Shown: positions 47,958 to 53,480 of the stretch, in pieces
How positions within the stretch are numbered: the stretch's first letter is position 1
How the letters are laid out: every line of letters begins with the position of its first letter
Source: the human T2T-CHM13v2.0 reference genome, Homo sapiens
Assembly (NCBI GenBank): GCA_009914755.4
Contig: CP086569.2
Span: 14,432,001-14,496,000, forward strand
Direction: 5' to 3'
DNA: 64,000 nucleotides
Notes under the pieces: model-generated
What the model was told of the DNA's origin: nothing
What the model saw: the letters and a program-made list of their open reading frames with translations, nothing else
Databases searched by the model: none
Translations under genes and position numbers: made by a program

Positions 47958-48835
47958 CTCAGCTCAATATCCCTAATGAGCACTGATGCAAAAATCCTGA
48001 ATAAAATACTGGCAATCCAACCCAGCAGTACATCAAAAATTTTATCCACCACAATCAAGTTGGCTTCACCCCCAGGATGCAAGGCTAGTTCAATATACAC
48101 AAATCAATAATTTTAATTTATTACGTAAACAGAAACAAAGGCAAGAATCACATGATTATCTCAATAGACACAGAAAAGGCCTTTGATAAAATTCAACACT
48201 TATTGGGAGTGTAAATTAGTACAACCATTGTGAAAGACAGTGTGGCAATTCCTCAATGATCTAAAACTATTGTGGCAATTCCTCAATGATCTAAAACTAT
48301 TTGACCAGCAATCCCATTACTGGGTATATACCAAAAGTATTATAAAGCATGCTGCTATAAAGACACATGCACTCATATTTATTGCAGCACTATTTACAAT
48401 AGCAAAGACTTGGAACCATCCCAAATGCCCATCAATGATAGACTTGATAAAGAAAATGTGGTACATGTACACCACGGAATACTACGCAGCCATAAAAAGG
48501 ATGAGTTTATGTCCTTTGCAGGGACATGGAAGAACTTGGAAACCATCTTTCTGAGCAAACTAACACAGGAACAGGAAACCAAACACCACATGTTTTCACT
48601 CATAAGTAGGAGCTGAACAATGAGAACACATGGACACAGGAAGGGGAACATCACACACCAGGGCCTGTTGGGGGATGGGGGATCTAGGGGAGGCATAACA
48701 TTAGCAGAAATACCTAATGTAGATTATGGGTTGATAGGTGTAGCAAACCACCATGGCACATGTATACCTATGTAACAAACTGCAGGTTCTGCACGTGTAT
48801 CCCAGAACTTAAAGTATAATTTTAGAAAGTCAATA

Positions 48836-49845
48836 TTGACATATGGGATCTAATTAAACTAAAGTGCTTCTGCACAGCAAAAGAAACTATGTTCAGAGCA
48901 AACAGACAATCTAAAGAATGAGATAATATTTTTGCAATCTATCCATCTGACAAAGCCCTAATATCTAGAATCTACAAGGAACTTAAACAAATTTACAAGA
49001 AAAAAGTGAACATGGACATTTCTCAAAAGAAGACATACATGTGACCAACAAACATATGACAAAAAGCTCAACATCACTGATTATCAGAGAAATGCAAATC
49101 AAAACCACAATGAGATAACACCTCATGTCAGTGATGATGGTGATTGTTAAAAAATCAAGAAACAACAGATGCTGGTGATGTTGTGGAGAAATAGAAACTT
49201 TTTTACACTGTTTCTAGGAATGTGAATTACCTCAATTATTGTGGAAGACAATGTGATGATTCCTCAAACACCAAGAACCGGAAATAACATTAGACCCAGC
49301 AATTCCATTACTGGGTATATACCCAAAGGAATATTAAGCATTCTGTTATAAAGATACATGCATGCGTACATTCACTGTGGCACTGTTCACAATAGCAAAG
49401 ACATGGAATCAATCCACATGCCCATCAATGATAGACTGGATAAAGAAAATGTGGTAAACATATGCCATGGAATACTATGGTATTACATGGAAAGGAATGA
49501 GATCATATCCTTTGTAGGGACATGCATGAAGCTAGAAGTTGTTATACTCAACAAACTAATGCAGAAACAGAAAACCAAACACTGCATGTTCTCACTTGTG
49601 AGTGGGAGCTGAACAATGAGAACACAAGGACACAGGGAGAGGAACAACACACATAGGGAGATGGTAAGGGAGTTGTGGAAGGAGGGAGAGCATCAGGAAA
49701 AACAGCTAATGCATGCTGGGCCTAATACTTAGGTTATGGGTTGATATGTGCAGCAGACCACGGTGGCCCATATTTACTTATGTAACCAACTTGCATGTCC
49801 TGCACAGGTATCCCAGAACTTAGAATAAAATAAAATTAAAATATT
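48836..49845 (+). mobile_element. L1 (older L1PA/L1PB-like) 3'-end fragment, the second member of a head-to-tail L1 3'-end stack.
   Basis: 'gggatctaattaaactaaagtgcttctgcacagcaaaagaaactat...atgcaaatcaaaaccacaatgagataacacctcatgtcag...tgcatgtcctgcacaggtatccccagaacttagaataaaataaaattaaaatattag'. ORF 49358-49612 'HMPINDRLDKENVV...'. Confidence 0.85.
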
Positions 49846-49889
49846 AGTTTTTATACCTAGAAATAAGGAAAAATGAAAAAATTTTGACA

Positions 49890-51020
49890 TTAAAAAATGA
49901 CTTAAACATAAGACCTGCAATCATTAAAATTCTAGAAGACAACCTGTGAAAAACTCTTCTGGACATTGGCTTAGGCAAAGAAATTAGAACTATGACCCTC
50001 AAAAGAAACTGTGACAAAAACAAAGATGAACAAAAGGGTCCTAATTAAATCAAATAGCTTCTGGACAGCAAAAGAAATAATTAATAGAGTAAACAGACCA
50101 CCTACAGAATGAGAGAAAATATTTGTAAACTATACATTTAACAAAGGGCCAATATACAGAATCTACATGGAACACAAACAGATCAGCAAGAAGAAAAATT
50201 CCATTAAAAAGTGGGCAAATCATATGCTGAAAACTAGAACTAGACCCTTTCCTTACACCTTATACAAAAATTAAATCAAGATGATTAAAGACTTAAATCT
50301 AAAACACAAAACCATAAAAACCCTAGAAGAAAACCTAGGCAATATCATACAGGACATAGACATGGGCAAGGACTTCATGATGAAAAAGCCAAAAACAATT
50401 GCAACAAAAGCCAAAACTGGACACATGGGATCTAATTAACCTAATGAGCTTCTGCACAGCAAAAGAAACTATGAACAGACAACCTACAGAATGAGAGAAA
50501 ATTTTTTGCAATCTACCCATTTAACAAAGGTCTAACATCCATAATCTACAAAAAACTTATAAAAATAAAAAAAACACACAAAAAAATGAAAAAACCATCA
50601 AAGAGTGGGGAAAGGATATGAACAGACACGTCCCAAAAGAAGACATTTATGTGGCCAAGAAACACGTGAGAAAAAGCTCAACATCACTTATCATTAAAGA
50701 AATGCAAATCAAAACCATCATGAGATACCATCTCACACTAGTCAGGATAGCAATTATTAAAAAGTCCAGAAACAATAGATGCTGGAGAGGCTGTGGAGAA
50801 ATAGGAATGCTTTTACACTGTTGCTGGGAATATAAATTAGTTCAGCCATTGTGGAAGACAGTGTGGTGATTCCTCAAGGATCTAGAACAAGAATTCCATT
50901 TGACCCAGCAATCCCATTACTAGGTATATGCCCAAAGGAATACAAAACATTCTACTGCGTATGTAACAAAAACCTGCACATTGTGCACATGTACCCTAAA
51001 ACTTAAAGTATAATAATAAT
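49890..51020 (+). mobile_element. Two juxtaposed L1 3'-region fragments (about 49890-50225 and 50226-51020) that cover overlapping parts of the L1 consensus. Third and fourth members of the stack.
   Basis: Both contain '...acaccttatacaaaaattaa...cttctg(g/c)acagcaaaagaaa...'. The second continues through 'atgaacagacacgtcccaaaagaagacatttatgtggccaagaaacacgtgagaaaaagctcaacatcacttatcattaaagaaatgcaaatcaaaacc' (ORF 50618-50869) to 'acatgtaccctaaaacttaaagtataataataatc'. Confidence 0.8.
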
Positions 51021-51510: not shown

Positions 51511-51534
51511 AAATTAAATTTAAAAAGTTTAAGT

Positions 51535-52055
51535 GAGCGAATCATCAATAACAGACTGAATAAAGAAAATGTGGTACATAACACACCATGTAATACTATG
51601 CAGTCATAGAAAGGAATTAAAAAATGTTTAAGTGGACAAATCATCAATGATAGGCTGAATAAAGAAAATGTGGTATATATATACCCTGGAATACTATGCA
51701 GCCATAGGAAGGAATGAGATCATGTTATCTGCAAGAACATGGATGGAACAGGAAGCCATTATCCTCAGCAAACTCACACAGAAGCAGAAAACCAAACAGC
51801 ACATATTCTATAATTGGGACAATGAGAACACATGGACACAGGGAGATAAACAACACATGTTGAGGCCTGTCAGGGAGCGGAGAGGCAGGAGGAGGGAGAG
51901 TATCAGGAAACATAGCTAATGCATGCTGGGATTAACACCTAGCTGATGGGTAATTTTGTGCAGCAAACCACCATGGCACATGTATACCTATGTAAGCAAC
52001 CTGCACATCCTGCACATGTATTCTGGAACTTAAAATAAAACAAAATTTTAAAAAT
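51535..52055 (+). mobile_element. L1 3'-end fragment, sixth member of the stack, with an internal tandem duplication of about 75 bp.
   Basis: 'aatcatcaataacagactgaataaagaaaatgtggtacataacacaccatgtaatactatgcagtcatagaaaggaat' and 'aatcatcaatgataggctgaataaagaaaatgtggtatatatataccctggaatactatgcagccataggaaggaatgag' are duplicated units. The fragment ends 'cctgcacatcctgcacatgtattctggaacttaaaataaaac'. Confidence 0.85.
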
Positions 52056-53480
52056 TTTAAAGTGGTTAAATGACATAAATATAATGGAAATATACAAATA
52101 GTCAAGAAACACATGAATAAATTATTAACATCACTAATTATGCAATTTAAAACCACAATGAGAAGATCAAAATTAAAACCACAATTACATATCACCTTAC
52201 CCCAGCCAGAATGGCAATCATTAAAAAGTCAAAAAACAATAGATGTTGATGCAGATATGATGAAAAGGGGACACTTATACATAGTGTTGAGAATCTAAAT
52301 TAGTACAAGCTTTATGGAAAACTATAGAGATTTCTCAAAGAAAGAAAAGTAGATCTACCATTTGATCCAAGAATCCCACTACTGCAGGGGTCCTCAAAAC
52401 CCAAGCCACGGACCAGTACCAGTCCCTGGCATGTTAGGAACTGGGCTGCATAGTAGGAGGTGAGTGGCAGTTGACTGAGTGAATCATCATCTCCCCATTG
52501 CTTGGATTACACCTGAGCTCTGCCTCAGTGGTGGCATTACATTTCTGTAGGAGAGCAAACCCTGTTGTGAACTACACACACAATAGATCTGTCGCACACT
52601 CCTAATGAGAATCTAATGCCTGATGATCCTTCAGTGTCTCCCATGAACCCCAGAAGACACAGTCTAGATGCCAGAAAACACACTTGGGGCTCCCACTGAT
52701 TTTTACTAACATACTGTAAATATATTTACAATAATTTATTATTGTAAATATATTATTGTAAATATATTATAAATATATTTACAAAAATAAATAATTCTAC
52801 ATTATTCCATTATATATCACAGCATGATAATATAAATAAAGTGCACAATAAATGTAATGCACCCCACCACAGATCTTGGAAAAATTTTCTTCCATAAAAC
52901 TGGTCTGTGGTGTCAAAAATGTTAGGGACTGCTGCACTGTCTACCCCAAGAAAAAGAAATCATTATATTAAAAAGACACCAACACACATATGTTTAACAC
53001 AGCACAATTCACAATTGCAAAGATGTGGAATCAACCTAAATGCCTTTTAATTGATAAGTGGATAAAGAAAAAATATGGCAGATGTAGATATATACCACAG
53101 AAGAGTACTCAGTGATAATAATGTTTTGCAGCCACTTGGATGGAACTAGAGGCCATTATCCTAAAAGAAGTAAACCAGGATTGGAAAACCAAATACTGTA
53201 TATTCTCACTTATAAGTGGGAGCTAAGCTATGGGTATGTGAAAGGCTACAGTATGGTATAATGCACATTGGAAACTCAGAATAGGGAAGGCTGGAATGAG
53301 GGTGAGGGATGAAAAATTATTTATTGAGTACAATGTATACTATTTGTTTGACAGGTATACCAAAAGCCCAAACTTTACCACTATACAATTTATCTATTTA
53401 CTCACAACTCTTGCTTACCCAATACTATCAAAATAAAATTTAAAATAAAATAAATAAGATTAAAATGCTGTCAATAAAAA
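52056..53480 (+). mobile_element. Old L1 3'-region fragment, seventh member of the stack, interrupted by a DNA transposon at 52384-52934.
   Basis: 'catcactaattatgcaatttaaaaccacaatgagaagatcaaaattaaaaccacaattacatatcaccttaccccagccagaatggcaatcattaaaaagtcaaaaaacaatagatgttgatgc...tttgatccaagaatcccactactg' precedes the insert. After it comes '...gcaaagatgtggaatcaacctaaatgccttttaattgataagtggataaagaaaaaatatggcagatgtagatatataccacagaagagtactc...aaatactgtatattctcacttataagtgggagctaagctatggg'. Confidence 0.8.
52384..52934. mobile_element. Non-autonomous DNA transposon with an internal near-palindrome, resembling the MER30-type (hAT-Charlie) family. Family name from memory, low certainty.
   Basis: The termini are 'caggggtcctcaaaacccaagccacggaccagtaccagtccctggcatgttaggaactgggctgc' and '...ccataaaactggtctgtggtgtcaaaaatgttagggactgctg', which are mutually reverse-complementary. 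The internal sequence is 'gagaatctaatgcctgatgatc'. It interrupts an L1 fragment. Confidence 0.6.

What the first reader, a model, noticed from the sequence alone, without database searches (positions are those of the whole stretch)
48230..53480. Head-to-tail stack of at least six or seven L1 3'-end fragments on one strand
From the 3' part of the rearranged L1 (ending 48826) through 53480, the sequence is a chain of independent L1 3'-terminal fragments, all on the + strand. Each ends in its own ...ctgcaca.gtatcccagaacttaaagtataat-type terminus and A-rich tail. The members are 48836-49845, 49890-50225, 50226-51020, 51031-51510, 51535-52055 and 52056-53480. They differ in age, from L1PA-like to L1M-like. 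Two overlap in consensus coverage, so this is not a single element. The pattern suggests repeated 5'-truncated L1 insertion into the A/T-rich tails of earlier L1s (L1 endonuclease prefers TTTT/A) in one orientation, or a locally duplicated array. One fragment was later hit by a DNA transposon.
Basis: seen in the sequence. Interest (0 to 1): 0.5.

Follow-up and report, generated by a model that had tools for sequence, protein, structure and literature searches.

The report
Ordinary nested cluster of L1 fragments
This 5-kb stretch is an ordinary pile-up of old LINE-1 retrotransposon fragments, formed mostly by younger copies landing inside older ones in the same orientation, a pattern already described genome-wide.

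Summary
Window 48.2-53.5 kb is almost all L1 sequence on the + strand and holds six separate L1 3' ends (about 48820, 49845, 51019, 51518, 52055, 53475).

Mapping to a full-length L1 in the same window shows three things:
- Members 2 and 6 are one old L1M-type element. It is split by a 1.85-kb L1 nest and by a 551-bp non-L1 insert that looks like a DNA transposon.
- Members 3 and 4 are one L1, split by a 66-bp young L1 tail.
- Member 2 has no 3' terminus at all.

Two L1s inside the old element sit head to tail. Copies of the same target motif, AAGTGG.CAAAT, flank both of them, which indicates two insertions at one endonuclease site (CCATT|AAAAAG). A 98-bp tandem duplication lies at that junction.

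The fragments are 75-80% identical to one another, no closer than to unrelated L1s. They have different 5' truncation points and different decay (about 8% to 25%). A locally duplicated array is therefore rejected.

The shared orientation is expected. L1 sense strands carry about 7 times more same-orientation nick sites, and L1-in-L1 nesting shows a 2.2-fold sense bias genome-wide. This is already known biology, and interest is low.

The parts
48201..48822 (+). L1PA-type 3' fragment (reference L1 5400-6003). It ends in ...GTATCCCAGAACTTAAAGTATAAT with no A tail. It contains a perfect 30-bp tandem duplication at 48241-48301.
   Evidence: 80.5% to the reference; tandem repeat; private divergence 7.8%.
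48823..49845 (+). 5'-truncated L1 3' fragment (reference 4991-6017) with a degenerate A-rich tail at about 49826-49845. The 3' UTR carries an extra segment (GCTAATGCATGCTGGG) that young L1PA lacks.
   Evidence: 74%; terminus at 49800; private divergence about 12%. No significant TSD.
49850..50222 (+). 5' piece of an old L1M-type element. Reference 4871-5202 is firmly aligned, and the piece probably starts near 4818. It lies inside ORF2 and has no 3' terminus.
   Evidence: private divergence 19%.
50209..50223 (+). Target-site copy 1, AAGTGGGCAAATCAT. It is preceded by CCATT|AAAAA, which on the other strand reads TTTTT/AA, the L1 endonuclease consensus.
50221..50956 (+). 5' part of nested L1 'E2' (reference about 4804-5541).
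50957..51025 (+). Tiny young L1PA 3' end 'E3' (reference 5955-6012, 90% identity, short AATAATAA tail) inserted inside E2. No convincing TSD.
51026..51525 (+). 3' part of E2 (reference 5542-6016) with a degenerate terminus and an (AAATT)n-like tail.
   Evidence: With E3 removed, E2 aligns 1-1229 to reference 4804-6016.
51531..51545 (+). Target-site copy 2, AAGTGAGCGAATCAT, directly after the E2 tail.
51517..51726 (+). Two units of a tandem duplication of about 98 bp. Each unit holds the tail end, a target-site copy and the first roughly 80 bp of E4. The units are 82% identical.
51630..51644 (+). Target-site copy 3, AAGTGGACAAATCAT, directly 5' of E4.
51642..52055 (+). Nested L1 3' fragment 'E4' (reference 5615-6020) with an A-rich tail.
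   Evidence: private divergence about 12%.
52059..52071 (+). Target-site copy 4, AAAGTGGTTAAAT. The old L1M resumes here at about reference position 5183.
52056..52384 (+). Middle piece of the old L1M-type element (reference about 5183-5505).
52385..52935 (.). 551-bp non-L1 insert with CAG...CTG ends and imperfect terminal inverted repeats. It is probably a non-autonomous hAT-type DNA transposon. The MER30-like assignment is from memory only.
   Evidence: L1 coordinates are continuous across it. Inverted arms 52406-52417/52899-52910 are 92% complementary and 52420-52435/52916-52931 are 81%. A global test of the terminal repeats was not significant.
52936..53478 (+). 3' piece of the old L1M-type element: reference 5512-5808, then an L1M-type 3' UTR and an A-rich tail.
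   Evidence: private divergence 25%.

Best explanation
The interval is a cumulative L1 nest, built by separate retrotransposition events over tens of millions of years.

The proposed order of events is:
1. An old, 5'-truncated L1M-type copy (49850-53478) was the landing pad.
2. Two 5'-truncated L1s (E4, 51642-52055, and E2, 50221-51525) inserted at one and the same endonuclease site in its ORF2 sequence (CCATT|AAAAAGTGGGCAAAT). This left a head-to-tail pair with a copy of the target between and on both sides.
3. About 98 bp at their junction was then tandemly duplicated.
4. A 66-bp young L1PA tail (E3) later landed inside E2.
5. A 551-bp insert that looks like a DNA transposon landed in the old L1M.

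Upstream, two more + strand L1 3' fragments (48823-49845 and 48201-48822) abut the old element and each other. Their junctions are non-canonical: no TSD at either, and no A tail on 48201-48822. How they became adjacent is not resolved.

All pieces share one orientation. L1 target-primed reverse transcription starts at TTTT/AA nicks, and these lie overwhelmingly on the strand that gives a same-sense insertion when the target is the A-rich sense strand of another L1.

Shown: the fragment map, collinearity after removing the inserts, the four target copies, the divergence ranking and the nick-site asymmetry. Inferred: the order of E2 and E4, the mechanisms at the 48822 and 49845 junctions, and the family of the DNA transposon.
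For: 1. Reference. The L1 at window 33916-39936 (-) is full length (6021 bp) with a 14-bp TSD. Its last 200 codons match human ORF2p residues 1076-1275 at E = 7e-131.

2. Map to that reference:
- 49896-50226 = 4871-5202
- 52100-52384 = 5235-5505
- 52942-53232 = 5512-5808
- 50207-51518 = 4791-6016 in one alignment
- 50960-51019 = 5955-6012
- 51642-52054 = 5615-6020
- 48826-49841 = 4991-6017
- 48204-48828 = 5407-6015

3. Excision test. After removing 50223-52075 and 52385-52935, the three old pieces align as one block (40-1224 of 1227) to another old L1 at 43100-44870 (-). E2 without E3 aligns 1-1229 to reference 4804-6016.

4. Target motif. AAGTGGGCAAATCAT occurs with at most 2 mismatches at 50209, 51531 and 51630, and at the equivalent ORF2 position of one other L1 copy in the window (6367, minus strand). 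A fourth copy lies at 52059. Flank-pair scores were reached by 13/500 (E2) and 1/500 (E4) random pairs. The four junctions are aligned.

5. Private divergence at sites invariant along the L1 lineage: 48201-48822 7.8%, E2 about 10.6%, E4 12%, 48823-49845 about 12%, old L1M pieces 19% and 25%. Every insert is younger than its host.

6. Pairwise identity of the 3' 400 bp among fragments is 75-80%, no higher than to unrelated copies.

7. Nick sites. Same-orientation TTAAAA against opposite-orientation TTTTAA is 7:1 in the reference sense strand and 18:3 in the interval, but 88:83 in the whole window.

8. Literature.
- L1-into-L1 insertions are 21,559 sense against 9,899 antisense genome-wide (PMC2836564, Table 3).
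- hg18 holds 307,412 transposon clusters with 636,125 interruptions (PMC1914374).
- Double insertion at one target leaves the target copy in the tandem junction (PMC5932611).
- L1 endonuclease-dependent sites in NF1 were each used twice (PMC3219598).
Against: - No RepeatMasker or Dfam library was available. Subfamily names (L1PA, L1PB-like, L1M) rest on my memory of 3' UTR types and on divergence, not on consensus matching.
- TSDs could not be shown for 48823-49845, 48201-48822, E3 or the old L1M. Their status as canonical insertions is therefore inferred.
- 48201-48822 has no A tail, which suggests a deletion or a non-canonical event at that junction.
- The four target copies are short (13-15 bp) with 0-2 mismatches, and the leading As merge into the tails. 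The exact TSD limits are uncertain.
- The order of E2 and E4 is not resolved. Divergences of 10.6 +/- 1.3% and 12 +/- 2.9% overlap.
- The terminal inverted repeats of the 551-bp insert are imperfect, and a global test was not significant.
Confidence: 0.85

Rival explanations
1. One reading: six or seven independent 5'-truncated L1s stacked strictly head to tail, each inserted into the A/T-rich tail of the one before.
For: Six L1 3' ends lie on one strand within 4.7 kb. E2 and E4 are truly head to tail with a target copy next to the E2 tail. The tail of 48823-49845 abuts the 5' end of the old L1M, and the end of 48201-48822 abuts the 5' end of 48823-49845.
Against: Member 2 has no terminus, and it is collinear with member 6 after excision. 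Members 3 and 4 are one element. E2, E4, E3 and the DNA transposon sit inside ORF2 sequence of older L1s, not in tails. There is no A tail at 48822. No TSDs support tail insertion at 48822 or 49845. The younger element lies upstream of the older one at 48822, which is the opposite of insertion into an older tail.
Confidence: 0.07
2. A locally duplicated array: one L1 3' fragment copied several times by segmental or tandem duplication.
For: Small tandem duplications do exist here: about 98 bp at 51517-51726 and 30 bp at 48241-48301.
Against: The fragments start at different L1 positions (5400, 4991, 4804, 5955, 5615, about 4818). They are only 75-80% identical to each other, no closer than to L1s tens of kb away. 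They carry different 3' UTR types and differ about three-fold in private divergence.
Confidence: 0.02
3. 48823-49845 is not an independent insertion. It is the 3' part of the older 'rearranged' L1 body (45846-48198, reference 1839-3807). In this reading 48201-48822 is a separate, younger L1PA fragment that replaced about 1.2 kb (reference 3808-4990) of that element, for example by an insertion-mediated deletion or an endonuclease-independent repair insertion.
For: Private divergence is 13.7 +/- 1.1% for the body and about 12 +/- 1.4% for 48823-49845, but 7.8 +/- 1.6% for 48201-48822 (z about 2.6). The yardstick element at 5560-10798 shows the opposite regional trend. Neither junction of 48201-48822 has a TSD, and it has no A tail. 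There is a 4-bp microhomology (ACAC) at its 5' junction.
Against: The 5' UTR piece of the same 'rearranged' L1 is 85% identical to the young L1PA 5' UTR. That fits poorly with an element old enough to carry the older 3' UTR type seen in 48823-49845. Diagnostic-site analysis could not separate the pieces. The 1.2-kb gap cannot be bridged by any direct test.
Confidence: 0.3
4. The E2-target-E4 dimer arose in one complex event, such as two cDNAs joined at one staggered break or recombination of insertion intermediates, rather than by two sequential insertions.
For: The same target motif flanks both elements, and an unexplained 98-bp duplication sits exactly at the junction. Recombination between L1 insertion intermediates has been reported (PMC13526784, listed; title and abstract only were read).
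Against: E2 has its own tail followed by a full target copy, as expected for a completed insertion. E2 and E4 are no closer to each other (75%) than to other L1s. Reuse of an exact L1 endonuclease site is documented (PMC3219598).
Confidence: 0.06

Closest known systems
Nested transposon clusters in primate genomes (Giordano et al. 2007, PMC1914374; Levy et al. 2010, PMC2836564)
   Same: Younger elements interrupt older ones. The host fragments become collinear once the inserts are removed. L1 is the commonest target. L1-in-L1 insertions favour the sense orientation (2.18-fold).
   Different: Nothing essential. This locus is simply dense, with five L1 insertions plus a DNA-transposon-like insert in 4.7 kb, and every insertion is in the sense orientation.
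Tandem dimers of transposable elements formed by double insertion at one target site (McGurk and Barbash 2018, PMC5932611), and reuse of L1 endonuclease sites (Wimmer et al. 2011, PMC3219598)
   Same: Two elements lie head to tail, with a copy of the target-site duplication kept in the junction and on both outer flanks. The target is a perfect TTTTT/AA endonuclease site.
   Different: The two L1s here are different copies with different truncation points (reference 4804 and 5615), not two copies of one active element. The junction also carries a secondary tandem duplication of about 98 bp. The events are ancient, so the sequential order is inferred.
Canonical 5'-truncated L1 insertions made by target-primed reverse transcription
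   Same: Each has a 3' terminus and an A-rich tail, and the 5' truncation point varies. E2 and E4 have a TSD of 13-17 bp that begins in an A run after TT.
   Different: 48201-48822 lacks a tail. 48823-49845, E3 and 48201-48822 have no detectable TSD.

Membership tests
LINE-1 (L1) 5'-truncated retrotransposon copies | Homology to the 3' part of L1 ORF2 and the 3' UTR, collinear with a full-length L1 | tested here: met
   All pieces map collinearly to the in-window full-length L1. The reference itself is validated against human ORF2p structures.
LINE-1 (L1) 5'-truncated retrotransposon copies | The element's own 3' terminus followed by an A-rich tail | tested here: met
   Met for 48823-49845, E3, E2, E4 and the old L1M. 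Not met for reader member 2, which is an internal piece. 48201-48822 has the terminus but no tail.
LINE-1 (L1) 5'-truncated retrotransposon copies | Target-site duplication flanking each insert, starting at a TT|AAAA-type site | tested here: inconclusive
   Met for E2 and E4, with the AAGTGG.CAAAT motif after CCATT|AAAAA. Not detectable for 48823-49845, 48201-48822, E3 or the old L1M.
LINE-1 subfamily assignment (L1PA / L1PB / L1M) | Best match to a curated subfamily consensus (Repbase or Dfam) | not testable with these tools
   No consensus library was available. Only relative divergence and 3' UTR type recalled from memory could be used.
Nested TE cluster | Host fragments are contiguous in element coordinates once the insert is removed | tested here: met
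   One search gives single alignments across both joins of the old L1M and across the E3 join in E2.
Nested TE cluster | Inserts are younger than their hosts | tested here: met
   Private divergence is 10.6% (E2) and 12% (E4) against 19-25% for the old L1M. E3 is 90% identical to a young L1PA, against E2 at about 79%.
Segmental or tandem duplication array | Copies share breakpoints and are more similar to each other than to dispersed copies | tested here: not met
   Start points differ. Mutual identity is 75-80%, no higher than to dispersed copies. The only local duplications are the 98-bp and 30-bp tandem repeats.
Double-insertion tandem dimer | A target-site copy is preserved in the junction between two co-oriented elements and on both outer flanks | tested here: met
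   Copies lie at 50209, 51531/51630 (duplicated) and 52059.
Non-autonomous hAT DNA transposon (MER30-like) | Terminal inverted repeats | tested here: inconclusive
   The ends are CAG...CTG, and sub-terminal arms are 92% and 81% complementary. A global alignment of the terminal 61 nt was not better than the best shuffles.
Non-autonomous hAT DNA transposon (MER30-like) | 8-bp target-site duplication | tested here: inconclusive
   The flanks are CACTACTG and CACTGTCT, which share only the first 4 bases. The 3' flank seems to have lost about 7 bp of L1 sequence.
Non-autonomous hAT DNA transposon (MER30-like) | Homology to the family consensus | not testable with these tools
   No repeat library was available, and the resemblance is from memory. 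MER30 is listed as a Charlie12-derived hAT element in PMC5753468.

The most novel reading that the evidence does not exclude
The stack grew by serial reuse of one regenerated endonuclease nick site. Each L1 insertion keeps the TT|AAAA site just upstream of its 5' target copy. The next L1 can then land directly upstream, in the same orientation, with its tail against the older element's 5' end. This would explain the E2-target-E4 dimer. It would also explain why elements get younger towards the 5' side at the 48822 and 49845 junctions (7.8%, then 12%, then 19-25% private divergence). If general, it would be a simple rule that produces co-oriented head-to-tail L1 stacks.
Probability: 0.15. Interest if true: 0.3.

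Novelty: already known. Interest (0 to 1): 0.08.

Why it matters
It matters little beyond correct annotation. The locus is a clear example of how L1-rich DNA accretes. A-rich L1 sense strands attract further same-sense L1 insertions, and one perfect endonuclease site was apparently hit twice, leaving the target sequence repeated at each junction (three copies from the insertions, a fourth from the later 98-bp duplication). It also shows that counting L1 3' ends by eye overestimates and misplaces independent insertions when elements are nested. No function or new mechanism is indicated.

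Tried and rejected
- I tested whether the old + strand piece at 45038-45353 (reference 5025-5348) continues in 48201-48822. This is rejected: identity to the reference is 75% against 88% in adjacent regions, whereas other elements differ by 4 points or less there. Private divergence is 17% against 7.8%.
- I tested whether 45038-45353 and the start of 48823-49845 are a long TSD. This is rejected: they are only 71% identical, no closer than to other copies, and have different indels.
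- A diagnostic-site ('young' versus 'old' state) analysis meant to rank subfamilies had too little power. Only the old L1M pieces were separable.
- The substitution spectrum of the 'rearranged' L1 body showed no strong editing signature (G>A 79 against C>T 61).
- I checked the body's 504-1838 deletion for splice signals, as in spliced L1 copies. There are no GT/AG boundaries.
- TSD searches for 48823-49845, 48201-48822, E3, the old L1M and the combined 45354-49845 unit gave nothing above the random-pair background. The best 'L1M' hit was only two similar (AAAAT)n-like tails.
- The paper on L1PA 5' UTR history could not be retrieved.

Full report
**Reference and map**

The window is primate genomic DNA, rich in L1 and Alu. 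No repeat library was available, so I used an element from the window itself as the ruler. The L1 at 33916-39936 (- strand) is full length at 6021 bp. It starts GGAGGAGCCAAGATGG and is flanked by a 14-bp target-site duplication (TSD), AAAAAGGATCAGCA. Its last 200 codons match residues 1076-1275 of human L1 ORF2p structures at E = 7e-131. ORF2 therefore ends at reference position 5802, and the 3' UTR runs to about 6003.

Sensitive blastn of 44-54.5 kb against this reference gave the following map, all on the + strand:

| Window | Reference L1 | Identity |
|---|---|---|
| 48204-48828 | 5407-6015 | 80.5% |
| 48826-49841 | 4991-6017 | 74% |
| 49896-50226 | 4871-5202 | 71% |
| 50207-51518 | 4791-6016 (one alignment) | 75% |
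| 50960-51019 | 5955-6012 | 90% |
| 51543-51612 | 5615-5683 | 84% |
| 51642-52054 | 5615-6020 | 70% |
| 52100-52384 | 5235-5505 | 68% |
| 52942-53232 | 5512-5808 | 67% |

**Checking the observation**

The L1P-type terminus motif occurs 7 times in the window against 0 in shuffles. Four of these lie in the interval, all on the + strand. A fifth, degenerate terminus ends near 51500. An L1M-type 3' end with an A-rich tail ends near 53475.

- Member 2 (49890-50225) ends inside ORF2 and has no terminus or tail.
- Members 3 and 4 are one L1, which I call E2. It is interrupted at reference 5541/5542 by a 66-bp young L1PA tail, E3, at 50957-51025.
- Member 6 (52056-53480) continues member 2.

I tested the joins directly. 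After deleting 50223-52075 and 52385-52935 in silico, the three old pieces align as one block (positions 40-1224 of 1227). The block spans both joins and the L1M-type 3' UTR, against another old L1 at 43100-44870 (-). E2 without E3 aligns 1-1229 to reference 4804-6016.

**The nest inside the old L1M**

The old element's 5' piece ends ...CCATTAAAAAGTGGGCAAATCAT. Its next piece restarts ...TTTAAAGTGGTTAAATGACAT, so about 15 bp of ORF2 sequence (reference about 5183-5200) is present on both sides of the 1.85-kb insert.

The same motif appears twice more. One copy follows the E2 tail directly (51531, AAGTGAGCGAATCAT). The other lies directly 5' of the next L1, E4 (51630, AAGTGGACAAATCAT).

In the whole window, the 15-mer with at most 2 mismatches occurs only at these positions and at the equivalent ORF2 position of one other L1 copy (6367, minus strand). 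Flank-pair alignment scores were reached by 13/500 (E2) and 1/500 (E4) random flank pairs. One search aligns all four junctions.

The original site, CCATT|AAAAAG, reads TTTTT/AA on the nicked strand, which is the L1 endonuclease consensus (PMC8565326 abstract). The simplest reading is two sequential insertions at one nick site, giving a head-to-tail dimer with the target copy kept in the junction. This matches the 'double insertion' model of McGurk and Barbash (PMC5932611). It also fits the reuse of exact L1 endonuclease sites seen in NF1 (PMC3219598).

Copies 2 and 3 belong to two units of a tandem duplication of about 98 bp (51517-51628 and 51615-51726, 82% identical). Each unit contains the end of the tail, the target copy and the first roughly 80 bp of E4. 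I regard this as a later slippage or unequal-exchange event.

Which of E2 and E4 came first is not resolved. Only the 5' target copy keeps the TT needed before the A run, which favours E4 first and E2 second. This is inference only.

**Other interruptions**

E3 is 90% identical to the young reference and carries its GTACCCTAAAACTTAAAGTATAAT ending. I found no convincing TSD for it.

The 551-bp block at 52385-52935 has no L1 homology, and L1 coordinates are continuous across it (5505|5512). It begins CAG and ends CTG. It has sub-terminal inverted arms that are 92% and 81% complementary. A global test of the terminal repeats was not significant, and the 8-bp flanks share only CACT. From memory it resembles MER30, a Charlie12-derived hAT element (family listed in PMC5753468). 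That assignment is untested.

**Ages, and why this is not a duplication**

I counted 'private' differences at sites where a young L1 and old L1s in the window agree. These approximate decay since insertion.

| Element | Private divergence |
|---|---|
| 48201-48822 | 7.8% |
| E2 | about 10.6% |
| E4 | 12% |
| 48823-49845 | about 12% |
| Old L1M, 5' piece | 19% |
| Old L1M, middle and 3' pieces | 25% |

Every insert is younger than its host. Over the last 400 bp, the fragments are 75-80% identical to each other, no more than to L1s tens of kb away. Their 5' ends differ (reference 5400, 4991, 4804, 5955, 5615, about 4818). A locally duplicated array is therefore rejected.

**Orientation**

Outside 45-53.5 kb the window holds L1s in both orientations. 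Within the cluster all are on the + strand.

This is expected. The L1 sense strand is 39% A. Sites that yield a same-sense insertion (TTAAAA) outnumber opposite-sense sites (TTTTAA) by 7:1 in the reference and by 18:3 in the interval, against 88:83 in the window overall. Genome-wide, L1-into-L1 insertions are 21,559 sense against 9,899 antisense (PMC2836564, Table 3).

Nested transposon clusters are also very common. hg18 holds 307,412 clusters with 636,125 interruptions, covering about 19% of the genome (PMC1914374).

**What remains unresolved**

The two upstream junctions are non-canonical. The piece 48201-48822 ends GTATAAT|TTTAG|AAAGTC, with no A tail, directly against the 5' end of 48823-49845. 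The tail of 48823-49845 in turn abuts the 5' end of the old L1M. No TSDs are detectable at either junction.

The piece 48201-48822 is also significantly less decayed (7.8 +/- 1.6%) than the ORF2 body of the 'rearranged' L1 it was thought to belong to (13.7 +/- 1.1%). The body matches 48823-49845 in decay.

One possibility, to which I give about 0.3, is that 48823-49845 is the 3' part of that older L1. In that case 48201-48822 would be a younger fragment that replaced about 1.2 kb of it. Against this, the rearranged L1's 5' UTR is of the young type (85% to the reference). Orthologous loci or consensus-based annotation are needed to decide.

**Verdict**

This is a real but ordinary nested L1 cluster. 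The architecture is mostly nesting inside older L1 bodies, with one double insertion at a single site. It is not a chain of six tail insertions, and it is not a duplicated array. All the mechanisms involved are already described.

Noticed in passing
window 33916-39936 (- strand): Full-length young L1PA (6021 bp) with an intact 14-bp TSD, AAAAAGGATCAGCA. ORF2 is broken into ORFs of 646 and 200 aa. The last 200 aa match human ORF2p residues 1076-1275.
   Followed up: partly
window 1-4748 (+ strand): A second young L1, cut by the window edge, is 96% identical to the full-length one. It lies in the opposite orientation about 29 kb away, so the two form a potential inverted-repeat pair.
   Followed up: no
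window 45354-48822: The 'rearranged L1' lacks reference positions 504-1838 and 3808-5399 and has no splice-like boundaries there. Its divergence is uneven: 5' UTR 85%, ORF2 77-80% and 3' end 81-88% identity to the reference. It may be a mosaic of two elements.
   Followed up: partly
window 46104-46415: An Alu sits inside the rearranged L1, with a long A tail and the TSD AAGATAAGACCC / AAAATAAGACCC.
   Followed up: partly
window 48241-48301: A perfect (100%) 30-bp tandem duplication, TGTGGCAATTCCTCAATGATCTAAAACTAT x2, lies inside an L1 fragment that is otherwise about 8% decayed. It must therefore be recent.
   Followed up: no
window 44878-45353: An inverted L1 3' UTR piece (44878-45035, 61.5% to the reverse complement of 51849-52017) lies directly next to an old + strand ORF2 piece (45038-45353, reference 5025-5348). 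That piece ends exactly at the 5' end of the rearranged L1, and its continuation was not found.
   Followed up: partly
window 47906-47958 and 47441-47466: An (ACA)n microsatellite of about 18 units and an (AAAAT)5 repeat lie inside the L1 ORF2 body.
   Followed up: no
window 53500-53660: The sequence just 3' of the old L1M tail looks like an LTR fragment of the MaLR type. This is from memory only and was not tested.
   Followed up: no
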